Shown here: positions 75 to 6,338 of the stretch, one piece after another
Layout of the letters: every line of letters starts with the position of its first letter
Position numbering within the stretch: the first letter of the stretch is position 1
Assembly (NCBI GenBank): GCA_037431425.1
Contig: GCA_037431425.1_4129.4
DNA length: 34,554 bases
Strand: one strand, 5' to 3'
Source of the DNA: a phage
Notes under the pieces: generated by a model
The model's database searches: none
What the model saw: only the letters and a program-made list of their open reading frames with translations
What the model was told of the DNA's origin: nothing
Program-made: the position numbers and the translations under genes

Positions 75-134
75 TTGTATTGTACTTAGAATCAAGTATA
101 ATGTTTTACATAGAGAGGGGAATAGTTCCCCTCC
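75..134 (+). promoter_or_regulatory. sigma70-like promoter followed by stem-loop (PeSL-like cassette)
   Basis: -35 TTGTAT 75-80, 16-nt spacer, -10 TATAAT 97-102; hairpin GAGGGG/CCCCTC 115-133; same architecture recurs more than 10 times. Confidence 0.6.
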
Positions 135-153
135 TAACAAAAAGGAAAGTAAC

Positions 154-327
154 ATGATTCATGTAGAATTGTCAGTACTGAGAGATTTGTTTTATCGGAT
201 GGGTACTACTGGCGAATATCCGAAGGGTGATACTGCAAAACTTTTTGTATCTCTCGACTTATGGCAACGCGAACAATTAGTAATGTCGTGGCGTAAAGGT
301 AAAGCAGATCGCGAGGTGAAAGCATGA
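154..327 (+). CDS. hypothetical small protein (57 aa)
   Basis: ATG 154 after RBS AAAGGAAAG, downstream of promoter and hairpin; stop TGA 325-327; below ORF-track size cutoff, translated by hand. Confidence 0.5.
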   Translation: MIHVELSVLRDLFYRMGTTGEYPKGDTAKLFVSLDLWQREQLVMSWRKGKADREVKA

Positions 328-473
328 AAGAATTCTTATTCGAAGTAGTTTTTATTGGTGTAAGTAGTCACCAATTGATTCGCTCAAGTGGTTACAATGT
401 TTGCCAGGCATGGAATAACATTAAACAAATGTACCCGAACGCTATCACATATCGCAACCCAAAACAAGTTTAA
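324..473 (+). CDS. hypothetical small protein (49 aa)
   Basis: ATG 324 overlaps upstream stop (ATGA); open to TAA 471-473; followed by terminator repeat. Confidence 0.45.
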   Translation: MKEFLFEVVFIGVSSHQLIRSSGYNVCQAWNNIKQMYPNAITYRNPKQV

Positions 474-480
474 AAATAAT

Positions 481-600
481 TAAAAAAAGGATTGACTTCG
501 GTTAGTCCTTTTTGCTATTATATATTCATTGAGAGATAGCTCACTGACCCATAGGGTGCGGAAGTGTATCTATTATATGCTGGTGGGTGTATTATCTAGT
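481..600 (+). repeat. intergenic repeat copy 1 (terminator hairpin plus conserved downstream segment)
   Basis: Near-identical to 3421-3540 and related to 5696-5850; contains Chi octamer GCTGGTGG at 579-586. Confidence 0.7.
488..513 (+). terminator. intrinsic terminator (UUCG tetraloop hairpin plus T-tract)
   Basis: GGATTGAC-TTCG-GTTAGTCC (8-bp RNA stem with two G-U pairs) followed by TTTTTGCTATT. Confidence 0.6.
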
Positions 601-626
601 ACTGAAAACTATTTGATAAAAAGTAC

Positions 627-654
627 TTGCATTGTACTTAGAATCAAGTATAAT
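627..654 (+). promoter_or_regulatory. sigma70-like promoter
   Basis: -35 TTGCAT 627-632, 16-nt spacer, -10 TATAAT 649-654. Confidence 0.55.
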
Positions 655-660
655 GTTTTA

Positions 661-735
661 CATCAGGACGGGGAACGAAATAAGTAAATCCCTGTTAAGT
701 AGCCCAGGAGTAAGGCATACGAAAAACTCCCCTGA
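661..735 (+). promoter_or_regulatory. structured 5' leader (long-range pairing TCAGG...GGGG / CCCC...CCTGA)
   Basis: Unlike the simple hairpin of other cassettes, about 75 nt with nested complementary segments between promoter and the 806 gene. Confidence 0.35.
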
Positions 736-805
736 TAAAATAGTTTGACAATAGTTTTAAGTACTGATAAAATAATCACATCAACTACTGATAAGGAAAC
801 ATAAA

Positions 806-1081
806 ATGCGGGTTCTTCTGACAGCTAACGAAATCGAGCAAGTACTTACTACTAACCTGGAACAATGGAAACGTGAAGCAGATATACAGGCGGTTCAATT
901 GTTAAATGATAAGTTAACGCCGGATGATTTAAGTAAGATTGTAGATCCTCAATTCTACGAAGATATTCACGACACCGCGTTAAGCGTCGAGGATGTACTA
1001 GATAAACACTACATTGATACTAATTTACAGGGTTACGGTCGTAAAAATTTTATTACTATTCACGACATTTACAATAATTAA
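806..1081 (+). CDS. hypothetical protein (91 aa)
   Basis: ORF with RBS AAGGAAAC 6 nt upstream of ATG. Confidence 0.7.
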   Translation: MRVLLTANEIEQVLTTNLEQWKREADIQAVQLLNDKLTPDDLSKIVDPQFYEDIHDTALSVEDVLDKHYIDTNLQGYGRKNFITIHDIYNN

Positions 1082-1084
1082 GTA

Positions 1085-1112
1085 TTGACAAAGTATCTTA
1101 GTACTGTATAAT
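1085..1112 (+). promoter_or_regulatory. sigma70-like promoter (extended -10)
   Basis: -35 TTGACA 1085-1090, 16-nt spacer, TG-n-TATAAT 1105-1112. Confidence 0.6.
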
Positions 1113-1142
1113 AGTTTGCATATTAATTAATAAGGAAACAAC

Positions 1143-1277
1143 ATGAAAGCGAATAAAGCAGCAAAGAAAGAAACCAATCCACTGGCTGGATGGAAATTAG
1201 ATTTATCCGATGAAGTAGTTTGCACAAATAAGAATGTAGTTGAAGCTGAAAAGAAATTACGAAAAGAAAACAAATAA
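1143..1277 (+). CDS. hypothetical small lysine-rich protein (44 aa)
   Basis: ATG 1143 after RBS AAGGAAAC; stop TAA 1275-1277; translated by hand, not in ORF track. Confidence 0.5.
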   Translation: MKANKAAKKETNPLAGWKLDLSDEVVCTNKNVVEAEKKLRKENK

Positions 1278-1280
1278 GTA

Positions 1281-1342
1281 TTGACAAAGTATCTTAGTAC
1301 TGTATAATAGATTACATCAAGTGAGGGGAAACGGTTCCCCTC
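1281..1342 (+). promoter_or_regulatory. sigma70-like promoter plus stem-loop (PeSL-like)
   Basis: -35 TTGACA 1281-1286, -10 TATAAT 1303-1308, hairpin GAGGGGAAACGGTTCCCCTC 1323-1342. Confidence 0.6.
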
Positions 1343-1363
1343 CTAACAAAGAGAGAAATAAAA

Positions 1364-4779: not shown

Positions 4780-4828
4780 TAACTAAAATAAAGTATAATG
4801 TTTTGCATAGGGGGAGATATCCTCCCCC
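4772..4828 (+). promoter_or_regulatory. sigma70-like promoter plus stem-loop (PeSL-like)
   Basis: -35 TTGCAT 4772-4777, -10 TATAAT 4794-4799, hairpin GGGGGAG/CTCCCCC 4810-4828; promoter overlaps the 3' end of the previous CDS. Confidence 0.6.
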
Positions 4829-4846
4829 ACTAAAAGGAGTAATAAA

Positions 4847-5071
4847 ATGGCTATCTTTGATGAACTGATGCGGGAAGTAGCTACCCTGGCAGAAGAGAAG
4901 AAATCATTTGATTCTATCTACAACACCGCTCACCGTGATTCAGTACTGGCATGTAACCAGGATCAAAAAGATGAACTAATCGCCACCTACCATGAAGCGT
5001 GGAAGTATTACCGCCAATGGGAGAAAGAAGAAAGTGAGTCTACCATTGACGGCCTCAATAATCTAATCTAA
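4847..5071 (+). CDS. hypothetical protein (74 aa)
   Basis: ORF with RBS AAAGGAG. Confidence 0.65.
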   Translation: MAIFDELMREVATLAEEKKSFDSIYNTAHRDSVLACNQDQKDELIATYHEAWKYYRQWEKEESESTIDGLNNLI

Positions 5072-5089
5072 AGTTTTATTTCAGTACTA

Positions 5090-5118
5090 TTGACATAGAT
5101 TGATAGTACTGATATGAT
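5090..5118 (+). promoter_or_regulatory. sigma70-like promoter
   Basis: -35 TTGACA 5090-5095, 17-nt spacer, -10 TATGAT 5113-5118. Confidence 0.5.
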
Positions 5119-5146
5119 AACTTTACTAACTACAAGGGGAAACATC

Positions 5147-5404
5147 ATGGAACAATTCACACAATATCGGGTAAATCCTCAAGCTATGGCATACGTAGAA
5201 GACCATAAAACGTTACCAGTACAAACACCAATTAAAGGCCATATCTATCGTGCAATGTCATGGAATCCGGCCCAGGATGGCTATAACACCGTAGCCGTGG
5301 GCATGTACTGCGGTAATGGTGAATGGTTTGATCCTAACAATCCGATTGCACTTGATAGTACTGAAAAAATGAAATGGGCCGATTACATCGAAGATATTTC
5401 ATAA
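5147..5404 (+). CDS. hypothetical protein (85 aa)
   Basis: ATG 5147 after RBS AAGGGGA; track start 5114 coincides with the predicted transcription start. Confidence 0.65.
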   Translation: MEQFTQYRVNPQAMAYVEDHKTLPVQTPIKGHIYRAMSWNPAQDGYNTVAVGMYCGNGEWFDPNNPIALDSTEKMKWADYIEDIS

Positions 5405-5411
5405 AAACTAT

Positions 5412-5472
5412 TTGACAGTACTAACCAGTAATGTATAATGTTTTACATAGAGCGGGGGAATAGTTCTCCCGC
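5412..5472 (+). promoter_or_regulatory. sigma70-like promoter plus stem-loop (PeSL-like)
   Basis: -35 TTGACA 5412-5417, -10 TATAAT 5434-5439, hairpin 5452-5472. Confidence 0.6.
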
Positions 5473-5494
5473 CAATAGTTTGGAGTAAAACATT

Positions 5495-5692
5495 ATGTCT
5501 ATCGCTATCGCCCTGGTCGAAGTACTGAAAGAAGCTAAAGCCAACCTTATCGATGTACAGATTAAGGAATTGCAAAATGGCTTAATCGGCTGTACTTGTA
5601 CCGCTGGTGGATCTGATTATCGTGAATTCGAATCACTTGAATCACTGGTCCGGTATCTTAAAATGATCGTGGAAGATTGGAGAATCATCTAA
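5495..5692 (+). CDS. hypothetical protein (65 aa)
   Basis: ORF with RBS TGGAGT. Confidence 0.6.
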   Translation: MSIAIALVEVLKEAKANLIDVQIKELQNGLIGCTCTAGGSDYREFESLESLVRYLKMIVEDWRII

Positions 5693-5695
5693 CAA

Positions 5696-5850
5696 AAAAA
5701 GAATAAAAAGGGATTGACTCCGGTCAGTCCCTTTGCTATTATATACGCATAGACAAAAACTAGCCCACAGGGTGCATAGGTGTATCTAAAATATATAGTT
5801 AATAACGGTGAGTAACTATCTGCTGGTGGGGTGAAAACTATTAATAAAAA
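5696..5850 (+). repeat. intergenic repeat copy 3 (diverged in second half)
   Basis: Terminator part identical to copy 2; contains Chi octamer GCTGGTGG at 5822-5829. Confidence 0.65.
5710..5740 (+). terminator. intrinsic terminator
   Basis: GGGATTGAC-TCCG-GTCAGTCCC followed by TTTGCTATT. Confidence 0.6.
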
Positions 5851-5853
5851 GTA

Positions 5854-5915
5854 TTGACAAAGTATATCAGTACTGCAATAATGTATCTCGTAGGGCGGCA
5901 ATGGTGCGACGGCCC
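5854..5915 (+). promoter_or_regulatory. sigma70-like promoter plus weaker stem-loop
   Basis: -35 TTGACA 5854-5859, -10 near 5876-5882, imperfect GC hairpin 5893-5915. Confidence 0.5.
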
Positions 5916-5936
5916 ACAAAGTTAGGAGATACACAA

Positions 5937-6269
5937 ATGAGTACTTCAATCGCTATCGTTAAAGCTTTCATCCGTACCAACGTTTCATCTGTATTCATTG
6001 ACGGATTGGATCGGGAAGTAGAATACTCAATCATTATCGCACAAACGGCAAACGGTGCTCGGTACATCCTTAATGATAGTGAAGCAAATCACTACTACTT
6101 CACTAAAGCCACTGGCTTTAAACGCATCGATGCTGATGTAGTATACGCTAAGATGAATAAGCTGGTAGACAAGATTAACGCGAAAGGTACTATCGATTTA
6201 CAGTACTGGACCGAAACCGATCCAGAATATGGATCTCACCGCTACCTGAATCCAGGTATTAAAATGTAA
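5937..6269 (+). CDS. hypothetical protein (110 aa)
   Basis: ATG 5937 after RBS AGGAGAT; track start 5901 lies inside the hairpin. Confidence 0.65.
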   Translation: MSTSIAIVKAFIRTNVSSVFIDGLDREVEYSIIIAQTANGARYILNDSEANHYYFTKATGFKRIDADVVYAKMNKLVDKINAKGTIDLQYWTETDPEYGSHRYLNPGIKM

Positions 6270-6276
6270 AAAGTAC

Positions 6277-6338
6277 TTGTGTAGCACTTAGATTTAAGTA
6301 TAATGTTTTTCATAGAGAGGGGGAAATGGTTCTCCCTC
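6277..6338 (+). promoter_or_regulatory. sigma70-like promoter plus stem-loop (PeSL-like)
   Basis: -35 TTGTGT 6277-6282, -10 TATAAT 6299-6304, hairpin 6315-6338. Confidence 0.6.

What the first reader, a model, noticed from the sequence alone, without database searches (positions are those of the whole stretch)
75..6338. Recurrent promoter-plus-stem-loop cassettes in front of small genes (PeSL-like)
At least eleven intergenic regions have the same design: an A-tract, a sigma70-like promoter (-35 TTGCAT/TTGACA/TTGTAT, -10 TATAAT), the conserved segment GTTTTACAT, then a GC-rich hairpin (GAGGGG-loop-CCCCTC variants) and an RBS. The hairpin would sit at the 5' end of the transcript. This matches the 'promoter-early stem-loop' cassettes reported in hyperplastic regions of T4-type phages, where they flank newly acquired ORFs and are thought to mediate modular shuffling. 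Several ORF-track starts fall inside these cassettes and were moved downstream.
Basis: partly seen in the sequence, partly recalled or inferred. Interest (0 to 1): 0.5.

Follow-up and report, generated by a model that had tools for sequence, protein, structure and literature searches.

The report
Promoter-plus-5'-hairpin gene cassettes, jumbo phage
The first 7 kb of this window is the end of the long terminal repeat of a giant E. coli phage, where nearly every small gene has its own strong host-type promoter, usually followed by a short hairpin at the start of the message. These repeated units mark where genes are gained and lost between related phages, like the PeSL cassettes of T4-type phages but built differently.

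Summary
Window 66-6358 holds 16 sigma70-type promoter cassettes. Ten carry a hairpin just after a conserved start segment (GTTTTACAT): eight canonical, one long structured leader and one irregular.

The window comes from an Asteriusvirus (121Q/PBECO4-like) jumbo coliphage. Positions 1 to about 7189 are the right end of its ~21-kb direct terminal repeat (DTR).

In seven related genomes, 97 of 138 DTR promoters carry such a hairpin, against 6% of random 34-mers. The stem usually starts at +6, covaries, and is never followed by a T-run. A covariance model of it hits only inside DTRs.

Gene gains and losses between relatives are bounded by the cassettes, with 48-67 nt of repeated cassette at the junctions.

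The PeSL label is only partly right. Real RB49 PeSLs carry the stem-loop inside the promoter, before the start site, where it acts as a terminator. Here it lies in the 5' UTR, and the host is not a T4-type phage.

Best reading: these are portable early-expression cassettes with a 5'-UTR hairpin that stabilises or insulates the message, and they also serve as recombination substrates. This is a new variant of a known kind. No transcript ends have been mapped.

Seen in passing: an oriented array of Chi sites, and a conserved CCCAnnGGGTGC element.

The parts
66..153 (+). Cassette P1: A-tract/AGTACT box, -35 TTGTAT 75-80, -10 TATAAT 97-102, start segment GTTTTACAT 103-111, hairpin 115-133 (GAGGGGAA-TAG-TTCCCCTC), SD, then ATG at 154
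   Evidence: (-15.0 kcal/mol, z -3.2)
614..735 (+). Cassette P2a: -35 TTGCAT 627-632, -10 649-654, GTTTTACAT, then a 73-nt structured leader 662-734 closed by ATCAGG/CCTGAT
   Evidence: z only -0.9. The leader recurs at three places per relative DTR, with a variant closed by ATCAAG/CTTTGAT
736..805 (+). Cassette P2b: -35 TTGACA 745-750, -10 TAAAAT 768-773, no hairpin, SD, ATG at 806
   Evidence: In 121Q and phAPEC6 the same gene sits behind a hairpin-bearing cassette instead
1082..1142 (+). Cassette P3: TTGACA 1085-1090, TATAAT 1107-1112, AGTTTGCAT, no hairpin, ATG at 1143 (44-aa gene present in this genome only among those compared)
1278..1363 (+). Cassette P4: TTGACA 1281-1286, TATAAT 1303-1308, AGATTACAT, hairpin 1323-1342, ATG at 1364
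   Evidence: (-14.5, z -3.0)
1700..1773 (+). Cassette P5: TTGACA 1710-1715, TATAAT 1733-1738, no hairpin, ATG at 1774
2201..2225 (+). Canonical intrinsic terminator after g6 (GGCGGGA-TCTGT-TCCCGCC followed by TTTTTT). It uses the same hairpin type as the cassettes but has a T-run
   Evidence: annotated as a terminator in G17
2493..2550 (+). Cassette P6: TTGACA 2493-2498, TACTAT 2516-2521, no hairpin, ATG at 2551
2770..2827 (+). Cassette P7: near-identical copy of P6, ATG at 2828 (kinase-like g9)
   Evidence: P6 and P7 bound a gene deletion in Salmonella phage SD-2_S15
3540..3631 (+). Cassette P8: TTGAAT 3553-3558, TATAAT 3575-3580, GTTTTATAT, hairpin 3594-3612, ATG at 3632
   Evidence: (-10.4)
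3854..3967 (+). Cassette P9: TTGACA 3857-3862, TATAAT 3879-3884, AGTTTACAT, two hairpins at 3904-3923 and 3928-3944, ATG at 3968
   Evidence: (-20.6, z -3.4). Hairpin 3904-3923 is an insertion absent from all six relatives
4429..4515 (+). Cassette P10: TTGCAT 4436-4441, TATAAT 4458-4463, GTTTTATAT, hairpin 4476-4497, ATG at 4516
   Evidence: The orthologous cassette in four relatives carries a different hairpin between identical flanks
4763..4846 (+). Cassette P11: TTGCAT 4772-4777, TATAAT 4794-4799, GTTTTGCAT, hairpin 4810-4828 (GGGGGAG-ATATC-CTCCCCC), ATG at 4847
   Evidence: (-15.0)
5080..5146 (+). Cassette P12: TTGACA 5090-5095, TATGAT 5113-5118, no hairpin, ATG at 5147
5405..5494 (+). Cassette P13: TTGACA 5412-5417, TATAAT 5434-5439, GTTTTACAT, hairpin 5452-5472, ATG at 5495
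   Evidence: (-16.0, z -3.1)
5845..5936 (+). Cassette P14: TTGACA 5854-5859, AATAAT 5877-5882, GTATCTCGT, irregular hairpin about 5893-5915, ATG at 5937. It shares the 19-mer CGTAGGGCGGCAATGGTGC with cassettes of Phapecoctavirus phiWec188
   Evidence: (z -0.15)
6270..6358 (+). Cassette P15: TTGTGT 6277-6282, TATAAT 6299-6304, GTTTTTCAT, hairpin 6317-6338, ATG at 6359
   Evidence: (-15.9). The downstream gene has a homologue behind a true PeSL in RB49
484..600 (+). E-element 1: terminator hairpin 484-513 that contains the -35 TTGACT, -10 TATTAT 516-521, short hairpin, CCCATAGGGTGC box 548-559, Chi GCTGGTGG 579-586
3424..3530 (+). E-element 2: terminator hairpin 3424-3451 with embedded TTGACT, TATTAT 3454-3459, box 3486-3497
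   Evidence: The hairpin is annotated as a terminator in G17
5707..5830 (+). E-element 3: terminator hairpin 5707-5734 with embedded TTGACT, TATTAT 5737-5742, box 5764-5775, Chi 5822-5829
7185..7193 (.). Approximate right boundary of the direct terminal repeat, by projection from vB_Ec-M-J (DTR 1-21525) and from the end of the G17 record. Cassette-type organisation stops here and tightly packed genes begin

Best explanation
Window 1 to about 7189 is the right-hand third of the ~21-kb direct terminal repeat of an Asteriusvirus jumbo coliphage. This region is an array of small, mostly ORFan genes that is probably expressed first after infection.

Nearly every gene carries a portable expression cassette. 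The cassette consists of an A-rich upstream tract, a near-consensus host sigma70 promoter with a 16-bp spacer, a conserved discriminator and start segment (GTTTTACAT, with the start most likely at the A of CAT), about 5 unpaired nt, an 8-bp hairpin with a G-rich 5' arm and a C/U-rich 3' arm, an A-rich linker, a Shine-Dalgarno sequence and the start codon.

The hairpin is transcribed as the 5' part of the cassette's own mRNA. It has no U-tract and is not a canonical terminator. It most likely protects the message, by hindering 5'-end-dependent attack or scanning by RNase E, and gives any inserted ORF a standard, insulated leader.

Because the cassettes are repeated tens of times in one orientation, they also serve as substrates for homologous recombination. 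This adds, removes or replaces single genes, and swaps hairpins or promoters between cassettes.

Shown here: the anatomy, the recurrence, the covariation, the location in the DTR and the cassette-bounded indels. Inferred: promoter activity, the exact start site, the stabilising or insulating role and the timing of expression.
For: Identity and location:
- 85% coverage at 93% identity to Asteriusvirus genomes.
- A DTR is annotated at 1-21525 in vB_Ec-M-J, and the spaced-gene organisation fills it exactly.
- The boundary maps to window position ~7189, from two independent records.
- DTRs of ~21 kb were confirmed experimentally for fEgEco12 (PMC13070987).

Promoters:
- 12/12 or 11/12 matches to consensus, all on the coding strand and all just upstream of an SD and ATG.

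Start site:
- A and T of the CAT are invariant in 65 distinct cassettes.

Hairpin:
- 97 of 138 promoters carry one, against 6% background.
- The stem starts at +6 in 55 of 97 and at +4 to +8 in 93 of 97. There are 37 distinct sequences.
- All 9 model pairs show double changes, the inner 8 pairs are at least 93% paired, and 0 of 500 shuffles reach the observed covariation.
- Orthologous cassettes keep a hairpin while changing both arms (g13).
- On the + strand there are 23 G.U against 7 A.C mismatches, as expected for an RNA read from the + strand.
- 0 of 97 are followed by a T-run.
- ARNOLD terminators in the G17 record are the E-hairpins and the g6 terminator, not these hairpins.
- The SD is unpaired in most predicted leaders.

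Recombination:
- Seven indel or replacement events against six relatives lie within 7 kb. Every boundary is in a cassette or within 8 nt of a gene end, with 48-67 nt of overlap equal to the repeated cassette.
- Across whole DTRs, 29 of 38 breakpoints fall in the 35% of sequence that is not CDS interior.
- The promoter spacers of P1 and P2a are homogenised to the P8/P15 type in this genome only.

Background:
- A base-paired 5' end slows RNase E (PMC3997798).
- Obstacles near the 5' end protect downstream sites from RNase E (abstract of PMC11194081).
Against: - No transcript 5' ends or half-lives are available for any Asteriusvirus in the literature I could search.
- With the predicted start, most hairpins leave about 5 unpaired nt. 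RppH and RNase E need only 2 unpaired nt and prefer 3 or more (PMC8833179). Simple blocking of the 5' end would therefore be incomplete.
- Six of the 16 promoters work without any hairpin, so it is not obligatory.
- Single-sequence z-scores are modest (-1.1 to -3.4).
- The covariation alignment was fitted to the model and its rows are related paralogues.
- The stem always has the G-arm first, which pairing alone does not explain.
- In RB49 a similar hairpin without an obvious U-tract was reported to reduce downstream lacZ as strongly as rrnB T1 (PMC2839356), so lack of a T-run does not exclude attenuation.
- Breakpoints at gene boundaries are also what selection for intact genes would leave.
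Confidence: 0.6

Rival explanations
1. True PeSL function. The hairpins are terminators or attenuators that stop or damp read-through from the upstream cassette, so that each gene is driven mainly by its own promoter. Their position after the start site is incidental.
For: - The G-run/loop/C-run make-up is the same as in RB49 PeSL stem-loops, one of which reduced downstream lacZ like rrnB T1 although it is followed by TATACTAC, not a U-run (PMC2839356 section 14; sequence).
- The same hairpin type followed by a T-run serves as the real terminator at 2201-2225 and at L001 4894-4915.
- Genes are packed head to tail with many promoters, so read-through must be substantial.
Against: - The hairpin lies downstream of the predicted start. 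A strong terminator there would abort the cassette's own transcript about 30 nt from its start.
- 0 of 97 have a T-rich tail.
- ARNOLD did not call them in G17.
- Where the phage needs termination it uses canonical hairpin plus T-run elements (E-elements and the g6 terminator).
Confidence: 0.14
2. Regulatory RNA switch or protein target. The C/U-rich 3' arm is an anti-SD-like sequence held in check by the SD-like 5' arm. Cleavage or unwinding of the 5' arm, by a host or phage RNase or RNA-binding protein, frees it to pair with the real SD. This would shut off early genes together, or a phage factor would recognise the hairpin for coordinated control.
For: - The 5' arms read GAGGGG/GGGGAG (SD-like) and the 3' arms CCCCUC/CUCCCC (anti-SD-like) in all 37 variants.
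- When the 5' arm is removed in silico, the 3' arm pairs with the SD in 7 of 8 window cassettes.
- The fixed G-first polarity and the near-invariant central G-C pairs suggest constraints on sequence beyond pairing.
Against: - The alternative pairings are weak (-2.4 to -8.2 kcal/mol) and are almost unavoidable for any C-rich run next to an SD.
- No candidate factor was identified.
- The stem sequence varies at three or more positions, which argues against a strict sequence-specific binder.
Confidence: 0.1
3. DNA-level element. The inverted repeat is an operator for a dimeric repressor that shuts off early promoters, or a cruciform or hot spot that directs recombination, and the RNA structure is irrelevant.
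For: - It is centred at about +16, a classic operator position.
- In RB49 one minicircle crossover mapped inside a stem-loop's loop (PMC2839356).
- Some homology breaks here fall at the hairpin (4486).
Against: - Compensatory changes in both arms with variable loop length (3-5 nt) do not fit a sequence-specific dimer site.
- The excess of G.U over A.C is strand-specific.
- Most junction overlaps cover the promoter part, not the hairpin.
Confidence: 0.06
4. No function of its own. The hairpin is a passenger that spread with a duplicated promoter cassette.
For: Cassettes are clearly paralogous and are homogenised by gene conversion. Six promoters lack a hairpin.
Against: - Pairing is kept through many double substitutions and whole-hairpin swaps.
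- The design is kept in other genera that share only about a third of their proteins: Alcyoneusvirus and Eneladusvirus (33-38% shared proteins per PMC5259590). It also occurs in Phapecoctavirus, with unrelated stem sequences.
Confidence: 0.05

Closest known systems
PeSL (promoter-early stem-loop) cassettes of T4-type phages RB49/phi1, PST/T4 and nt-1/KVP40 (Arbiol et al. 2010, PMC2839356; Comeau et al. 2014, PMC4122927)
   Same: - Intergenic units of about 60-100 bp, starting at the upstream stop codon in an A/T-rich tract.
- A strong sigma70-type promoter, a G-run/loop/C-run stem-loop, then SD and ATG.
- Clustered in a hyperplastic region of ORFans.
- They flank the indels that distinguish close relatives.
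- One ORFan family (g18 here, RB49p225) sits behind both kinds of cassette.
   Different: - In RB49 the stem-loop lies between -35 and -10 or over the -10, so it is not part of the cassette's own transcript, and it is described as a terminator. Here it starts about 5 nt after the predicted start and has no T-run.
- The host phage is an Asteriusvirus.
- The array fills a terminal repeat rather than internal hyperplastic regions.
- There is no sequence similarity beyond the promoter consensus.
- Minicircles were not tested.
5'-terminal stabilising stem-loops of E. coli mRNAs (ompA and papA type; Emory, Bouvet and Belasco 1992; reviewed in PMC3997798)
   Same: A stable hairpin close to the 5' end of an mRNA, upstream of an unstructured linker and the SD. 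Such hairpins are portable between messages.
   Different: Protective hairpins of that type sit within a few nt of the 5' end, whereas most here would leave about 5 unpaired nt. No half-life data exist. The stem make-up is stereotyped, always G-arm first.
Host-takeover module in the terminal redundancy of Bacillus phage SPO1 (24 genes; PMC10531801). From my own knowledge, also the pre-early region in the terminal repeat of phage T5
   Same: A terminal repeat filled with small, mostly unique early genes served by strong host-type promoters. Here one ParE-like toxin and one kinase-like protein hint at action on the host.
   Different: No homology. Function in host takeover was not tested here. 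The regular 5' hairpin and the cassette-bounded gene turnover are not part of the SPO1 description I could read.
Composite terminator/promoter elements (PeSL subclass with the stem-loop over the -35 box)
   Same: The three E-elements (484-521, 3424-3459, 5707-5742) are hairpin plus T-run terminators whose stem contains TTGACT, followed 17-18 bp later by TATTAT.
   Different: They drive a conserved non-coding segment (the CCCAnnGGGTGC box) rather than an SD and ORF, and they are followed by a second, ordinary cassette.

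Membership tests
PeSL (T4-type phage promoter-early stem-loop) | Near-consensus sigma70 early promoter with an A/T-rich tract upstream of -35 | tested here: met
   16 promoters with 10-12 of 12 consensus matches, and AAAAAGTAC upstream in most.
PeSL (T4-type phage promoter-early stem-loop) | Stable stem-loop, often a G-run, a loop, then a C-run | tested here: met
   7-9 bp stems with the G-rich arm first in all 37 distinct variants.
PeSL (T4-type phage promoter-early stem-loop) | Stem-loop placed within, over or upstream of the promoter, always before the transcription start (five subclasses, PMC2839356 section 14) | tested here: not met
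   In RB49 itself the stem-loop is between -35 and -10 or over -10. Here the stem begins 13-16 nt after the -10 hexamer, about +6 from the predicted start. Only the three E-elements meet this feature.
PeSL (T4-type phage promoter-early stem-loop) | The stem-loop terminates or attenuates transcription coming from upstream | not testable with these tools
   Indirect only: 0 of 97 have a T-rich tail, and ARNOLD did not call them in G17.
PeSL (T4-type phage promoter-early stem-loop) | SD and start codon of the downstream gene at the 3' end | tested here: met
PeSL (T4-type phage promoter-early stem-loop) | Concentrated in hyperplastic regions rich in ORFans | tested here: met
   Model hits occur only in DTR parts. 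Only 1 of 19 proteins passes a Pfam cut-off.
PeSL (T4-type phage promoter-early stem-loop) | Flank indels or replacements between close relatives, with junctions inside the repeated motif | tested here: met
   seven events with 48-67 nt of overlap; 29 of 38 breakpoints; cassette and hairpin swaps.
PeSL (T4-type phage promoter-early stem-loop) | Formation of encapsidated minicircles by recombination between neighbouring copies | not testable with these tools
   Needs inverse PCR on phage DNA.
PeSL (T4-type phage promoter-early stem-loop) | Resident in a T4-type (Straboviridae) genome | tested here: not met
   genus Asteriusvirus.
5'-terminal mRNA-stabilising stem-loop | Hairpin at or within a very few unpaired nt of the transcript's 5' end | tested here: inconclusive
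   The predicted start leaves 5 unpaired nt in 55 of 97 and 1-4 in 14 of 97. The start site is not mapped. RppH and RNase E need at least 2 unpaired nt (PMC8833179).
5'-terminal mRNA-stabilising stem-loop | Lengthens mRNA half-life in a way that depends on pairing | not testable with these tools
   Needs reporter and half-life assays.
Intrinsic (Rho-independent) terminator | GC-rich hairpin immediately followed by a U-tract | tested here: not met
   mean of 1.6 T in the 8 nt after the stem, and none with 5 or more. The scan lists only the E-hairpins and 2201-2219 in this role.
Early 'host-takeover' module in a phage terminal repeat (SPO1 type) | Lies within the direct terminal repeat | tested here: met
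   plus PMC13070987.
Early 'host-takeover' module in a phage terminal repeat (SPO1 type) | Gene products act on host processes early in infection | not tested
   Only hints: a ParE-like domain in g7 (E 1.6e-10) and weak kinase matches in g9. The Muenster annotation names a YafQ-like toxin and a protein kinase at the syntenic places.

The most novel reading that the evidence does not exclude
The terminal repeat is a dedicated gene-exchange platform. Co-oriented Chi sites (4 in the window's DTR part, 9 per DTR, none outside) would engage host RecBCD/RecA at the incoming DNA ends. The tens of co-oriented promoter-hairpin cassettes would supply the homology. Single ORFans would then be captured, lost or swapped as ready-to-express units, an integron-like array without an integrase. 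ORFs would be exchanged even with unrelated phages (RB49, Phapecoctavirus) that use their own cassette types.
Probability: 0.3. Interest if true: 0.7.

Novelty: new variant of a known kind. Interest (0 to 1): 0.45.

Why it matters
If confirmed, it would extend cassette-mediated gene shuffling from T4-type phages to the terminal repeats of jumbo phages, and by the look to Alcyoneusvirus, Eneladusvirus and Phapecoctavirus. It would also show that the stem-loop can sit on the other side of the start site, where it must do a different job (a 5' leader structure rather than a terminator).

It gives a compact natural set of strong promoter, 5' hairpin and RBS parts, with dozens of natural variants, for testing how 5' structures set mRNA life and translation in E. 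coli.

It also flags the DTR genes as the likely first-expressed, fast-turnover arsenal of phages that are being considered for therapy.

Tried and rejected
- **Rfam** (E up to 1) over 1-7300: only two chance-level matches. One is the patAB leader on the E3 terminator hairpin. Nothing matched the cassette hairpins, the P2a leader or the CCCAnnGGGTGC box.
- **tRNA/tmRNA scan:** none found.
- **Promoter-anchored MAFFT alignment** of cassettes (A1): not usable for pair counting, because 3-nt and 4-nt loops shift the register. I replaced it with a covariance-model alignment, which is fitted to the structure and includes both strands. I say so where I use it.
- **RNAalifold on the E-elements**: only a 4-7 bp hairpin without covariation. 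The idea of a well-folded small RNA there is not supported, although the first short hairpin seems to covary by eye.
- **Exact-motif scan of IMG/VR** with GTATAATGTTTTACAT: mostly single chance hits. Only jumbo-phage contigs of about 350 kb and one 109-kb contig have several copies.
- **Literature searches** for an earlier description in Asteriusvirus or RaK2-like phages: the CBB paper predicts RpoD-like promoters with UP elements, and none of the papers read mentions 5' hairpins or cassette-bounded indels. Two of these searches were badly framed and returned noise.
- **MITE-like mobile element:** considered and rejected. There are no terminal inverted repeats or target duplications, and the copies are always in one orientation in front of genes.
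- **RNase III site:** rejected, because the stems are only 7-9 bp.

Full report
**What the region is.**
Megablast of window 1-6500 finds 91 phage records. The best are Asteriusvirus jumbo coliphages such as vB_EcoM_CRJP21, 121Q, G17 and phAPEC6, at 88-94% identity but with only 48-85% coverage in 5-11 pieces. The region is therefore mosaic.

In vB_Ec-M-J a direct terminal repeat (DTR) is annotated at 1-21525. Its 53 small genes are each separated by 50-100 nt spacers, and the tightly packed, overlapping genes begin right after it. The window shows the same change of style after about 7200. Projection from vB_Ec-M-J and from the end of the G17 record both put the DTR boundary at window position ~7189. 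[quoted passage not shown]

The finding therefore covers the right-hand third of the terminal repeat of a jumbo phage, not a hyperplastic region of a T4-type phage.

**Check of the observation.**
Anchoring on the -10 hexamers gives 16 promoter cassettes in front of genes between 66 and 6358. All are on the coding strand and most match the consensus at 10-12 of 12 positions, with a 16-bp spacer.

They fall into families:
- AAAAAGTACTTGCATTGTACTTAGAATCAAGTATAATGTTTTACAT (P1, P2a, P8, P10, P11, P15)
- GTATTGACAAAGTATCTTAGTACTGTATAATAGTTTACAT (P3, P4, P9, and loosely P14)
- A P6/P7 pair
- Singletons

Folding from the predicted start gives one 7-9 bp hairpin of -10 to -16 kcal/mol in P1, P4, P8, P10, P11, P13 and P15, and two hairpins in P9. 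P2a has a 73-nt branched leader and P14 an irregular weak hairpin. P2b, P3, P5, P6, P7 and P12 have none.

The pattern is real. 'At least eleven' is a slight overcount, because ten have a hairpin. The three further promoters at 492-521, 3431-3459 and 5714-5742 are a different kind of element, described below.

**Is the hairpin more than chance?**
Single-sequence z-scores are modest (-1.1 to -3.4), because dinucleotide shuffles keep the G and C runs. The recurrence is the stronger argument.

- In the DTR parts of seven genomes, 97 of 138 promoters followed by YAT have a hairpin of -8 kcal/mol or better within the first 34 nt. Only 6% of random 34-mers from the same regions do.
- The stem starts at +6 from the A of YAT in 55 cases and at +4 to +8 in 93. 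Stems are 7-9 bp, loops 3-5 nt, and there are 37 distinct sequences.
- A covariance model built from 14 hairpins finds about 100 sites on the + strand. All lie in DTR parts, and none lies in the roughly 60 kb of flanking non-DTR sequence searched, including window 7300-34554.
- On the model alignment all nine pairs show changes on both sides, the inner eight are at least 93% paired, and no shuffle out of 500 reaches the observed covariation (0.43 against 0.22). Slid registers give 0.20 or less.
- Caveats: the alignment is fitted to the model, contains both strands, and its rows are related paralogues.
- Independent support comes from orthologous positions. In front of g13, identical promoter and SD flanks enclose GAGGGGGAA-ATGG-TTTCCCCTC in two genomes and GCGGGGGAA-TAG-TTCTCCCGC in four.
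- On the + strand G.U outnumbers A.C by 23 to 7, as expected if the structure matters in RNA read from the + strand. This is only suggestive, because the model favours G.U.

**Where the hairpin lies relative to the transcript.**
In 65 distinct cassettes the A and T of the CAT or TAT, at 8-9 nt after the -10 hexamer, are invariant. A pyrimidine-purine step at 7-8 nt is the usual E. coli start (my own knowledge). The start is therefore most likely that A, and the hairpin belongs to the cassette's own mRNA, after about 5 unpaired nt.

None of the 97 hairpins is followed by a T-run; the mean is 1.6 T in 8 nt. The terminators that the authors of the G17 record predicted with ARNOLD are the E-hairpins and the g6 terminator, not these hairpins. 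Where the phage needs termination it uses canonical elements, one of which (2201-2225) is the same hairpin type plus TTTTTT.

**Comparison with real PeSLs.**
The defining papers describe PeSLs as follows:
- an A/T-rich tract containing the upstream stop codon;
- a sigma70 promoter;
- then an SD and ATG.

The stem-loop is taken to be a terminator or attenuator of upstream transcription, and one example was tested with lacZ (PMC2839356 section 14; PMC4122927).

I extracted the RB49 intergenic regions themselves. PeSL206/205 reads TTGACA-GGGGATCGGTGATCCCC-TATAAT, and others have the -10 inside the loop. The make-up of the stem, the promoter, the SD and the genomic behaviour match. The position of the stem, and therefore its possible function, does not.

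The three E-elements do fit the subclass with the stem-loop over the -35. They are hairpin plus T-run terminators whose stem contains TTGACT, followed by TATTAT.

**Gene turnover at the cassettes.**
Against six relatives, the 7.2 kb show seven events:
- replacement of g4 (homology ends at 1121 in P3 and resumes at 1269, the start of P4);
- an extra gene between P7 and g9 in all six relatives (in SD-2_S15 it sits behind P6 instead, see the g8 item);
- an extra gene between two copies of the class-B cassette in vB_Ec-M-J and G17 (48-nt overlap, 3852-3899);
- an extra gene between two P2b copies in 121Q and phAPEC6 (56-nt overlap);
- absence of g13 in 121Q (one cassette instead of P10 and P11, 55-nt overlap);
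- an extra gene between two P14 copies in 121Q (67-nt overlap);
- loss of g8 between the twin cassettes P6 and P7 in Salmonella phage SD-2_S15.

Every boundary lies in a cassette or within 8 nt of a gene end, although only 29% of the region is non-coding.

Over whole DTRs (vB_Ec-M-J against CRJP21 and 121Q), 29 of 38 breakpoints lie in the 35% of sequence that is not CDS interior. Eleven breaks pair a 155-400 nt gap in one genome with a 20-103 nt overlap in the other. This is the signature of recombination between repeated cassettes.

Cassettes also exchange parts:
- g3 has a hairpin-less cassette in five genomes and a hairpin-bearing one in two.
- P1 and P2a of this genome carry the P8/P15-type spacer, unlike their orthologues.

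Selection for intact genes would by itself favour boundaries at gene ends. The repeated-junction signature is the more specific evidence.

**Spread.**
The same layout (promoter, CAT, short spacer, G-first hairpin, A-rich linker, SD) occurs with unrelated stem sequences in several other places:
- the DTR of Klebsiella phage Muenster (Alcyoneusvirus);
- Erwinia phage pEa_SNUABM_50 (Eneladusvirus);
- divergent metagenomic jumbo-phage contigs;
- the 150-kb Phapecoctavirus phiWec188, whose cassettes share a 19-mer with P14.

g18 has homologues behind each lineage's own cassette type, including RB49p225 behind PeSL226/225 (34% identity, E 3e-17). ORFs therefore move between lineages, while the cassettes are lineage-specific.

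**Mechanism.**
I favour portable early-expression cassettes whose hairpin is a 5'-leader structure. A base-paired 5' end slows RNase E (PMC3997798), and structures near the 5' end protect downstream sites from RNase E (abstract of PMC11194081).

The weak point is the roughly 5 unpaired nt. RppH and RNase E need only two and prefer three or more (PMC8833179). Protection would therefore have to work by hindering scanning rather than by hiding the end, unless the true start lies closer to the stem. A standard leader would also insulate the SD from whatever ORF is inserted, and the SD is unpaired in most predicted leaders.

Rival readings:
- attenuation of read-through, the PeSL function;
- a switch in which the anti-SD-like 3' arm is released to block the SD. 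In silico this happens in 7 of 8 cassettes, but weakly;
- a DNA-level operator or recombination signal;
- a passenger with no function.

None is excluded without transcript mapping.

**Content of the cassettes.**
Of 19 proteins only g7 passes a Pfam cut-off (ParE-like toxin, E 1.6e-10). g9 has weak kinase matches. The Muenster annotation names a YafQ-like toxin and a protein kinase at the syntenic places. This fits a host-directed early module like the SPO1 host-takeover module in its terminal redundancy (PMC10531801), but function was not tested.

**Novelty.**
The Asteriusvirus and RaK2-like genome papers I could read confirm the DTRs or predict RpoD-like promoters. None mentions 5' hairpins or cassette-bounded indels. 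I rate this a new variant of a known kind, of moderate interest.

Noticed in passing
window 579-586, 4025-4032, 5603-5610, 5822-5829 (+ strand); L001 600-20157: The E. coli Chi octamer GCTGGTGG occurs 4 times on the + strand, all inside the DTR part. It never occurs on the - strand or in the 27 kb after the DTR, where 0.1 per strand is expected for the whole window.

vB_Ec-M-J has 9 + strand copies, all within its DTR, plus 2 - strand copies (588 and 7402). Klebsiella Muenster and Erwinia pEa_SNUABM_50 DTR pieces have 3 + strand copies each. The RB49 hyperplastic region and phiWec188 have none.

This orientation suits RecBCD entering from the right genome end. The - strand copy at 588 suits entry from the left end. 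[quoted passage not shown]
   Followed up: partly
window 522-583, 3460-3521, 5738-5799; L001 1076-1354(-), 3504-3624, 5545-5606(-), 10389, 12055, 14042, 17322, 20073; L079 1839, 3403; L080 594, 1152, 3528: A conserved non-coding element follows a subset of DTR promoters. It consists of the start CAT, a short variable hairpin that seems to covary by eye (TGAG/CTCA, TGAA/TTCA, TGCA/TGCA, GACG/CGTC), then an invariant CCCAnnGGGTGC box and often TGTATCTAT.

There are many copies per DTR, on both strands, in three genera. There is no Rfam match. RNAalifold supports only the small CCC/GGG hairpin. Its function is unknown; it could be a leader element, a small RNA or a protein site.
   Followed up: partly
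whole window, e.g. 70, 622, 1100, 1296, 3548, 3872, 4431, 6272: AGTACT is strongly over-represented: 43 copies in 1-7200 (2.3 expected) and 76 in the rest (9 expected). CAGTACTG occurs 7 and 12 times against 0.08 and 0.22 expected. It lies both inside genes and at two fixed places in the promoters: overlapping the -35, and just before the -10. No explanation was tested.
   Followed up: no
window 662-734: The leader of P2a is a 73-nt branched structure closed by ATCAGG/CCTGAT and directly followed by a second promoter (P2b). It recurs three times per DTR in relatives, once as a diverged variant closed by ATCAAG/CTTTGAT. The single-sequence z-score is only -0.9, and there is no Rfam match.
   Followed up: partly
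window 3904-3923: An extra perfect hairpin (GGGAAGTT-TTAA-AACTTCCC) is inserted into the leader of cassette P9. It is absent from all six relatives compared, so this cassette has two hairpins in tandem.
   Followed up: partly
window 6359-6760 (g18) and 5845-5936 (P14): g18 has homologues in RB49/phi1 (behind a true PeSL), in Phapecoctavirus (68% identity), in an Acinetobacter phage and in the DTRs of three other jumbo genera. P14 shares a 19-nt leader string with Phapecoctavirus cassettes. Together these point to exchange of early ORFans, and perhaps of a cassette, between unrelated coliphages.
   Followed up: partly
window 2242-2496 (g7) and 2828-3412 (g9): g7 carries a ParE-like toxin domain (E 1.6e-10) and has no promoter of its own; it sits just after the terminator at 2201-2225. 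g9 is kinase-like. A toxin-like gene and a kinase gene are also annotated in the Klebsiella phage Muenster DTR.
   Followed up: no
window 7230-7291: Just after the DTR boundary there is a TTGACT-N16-TAAAAT promoter without a hairpin. The ATG at 7258 listed as an ORF start directly abuts the -10. The real start is probably the GTG at 7289, after AGGGAG, as annotated in vB_Ec-M-J.
   Followed up: no
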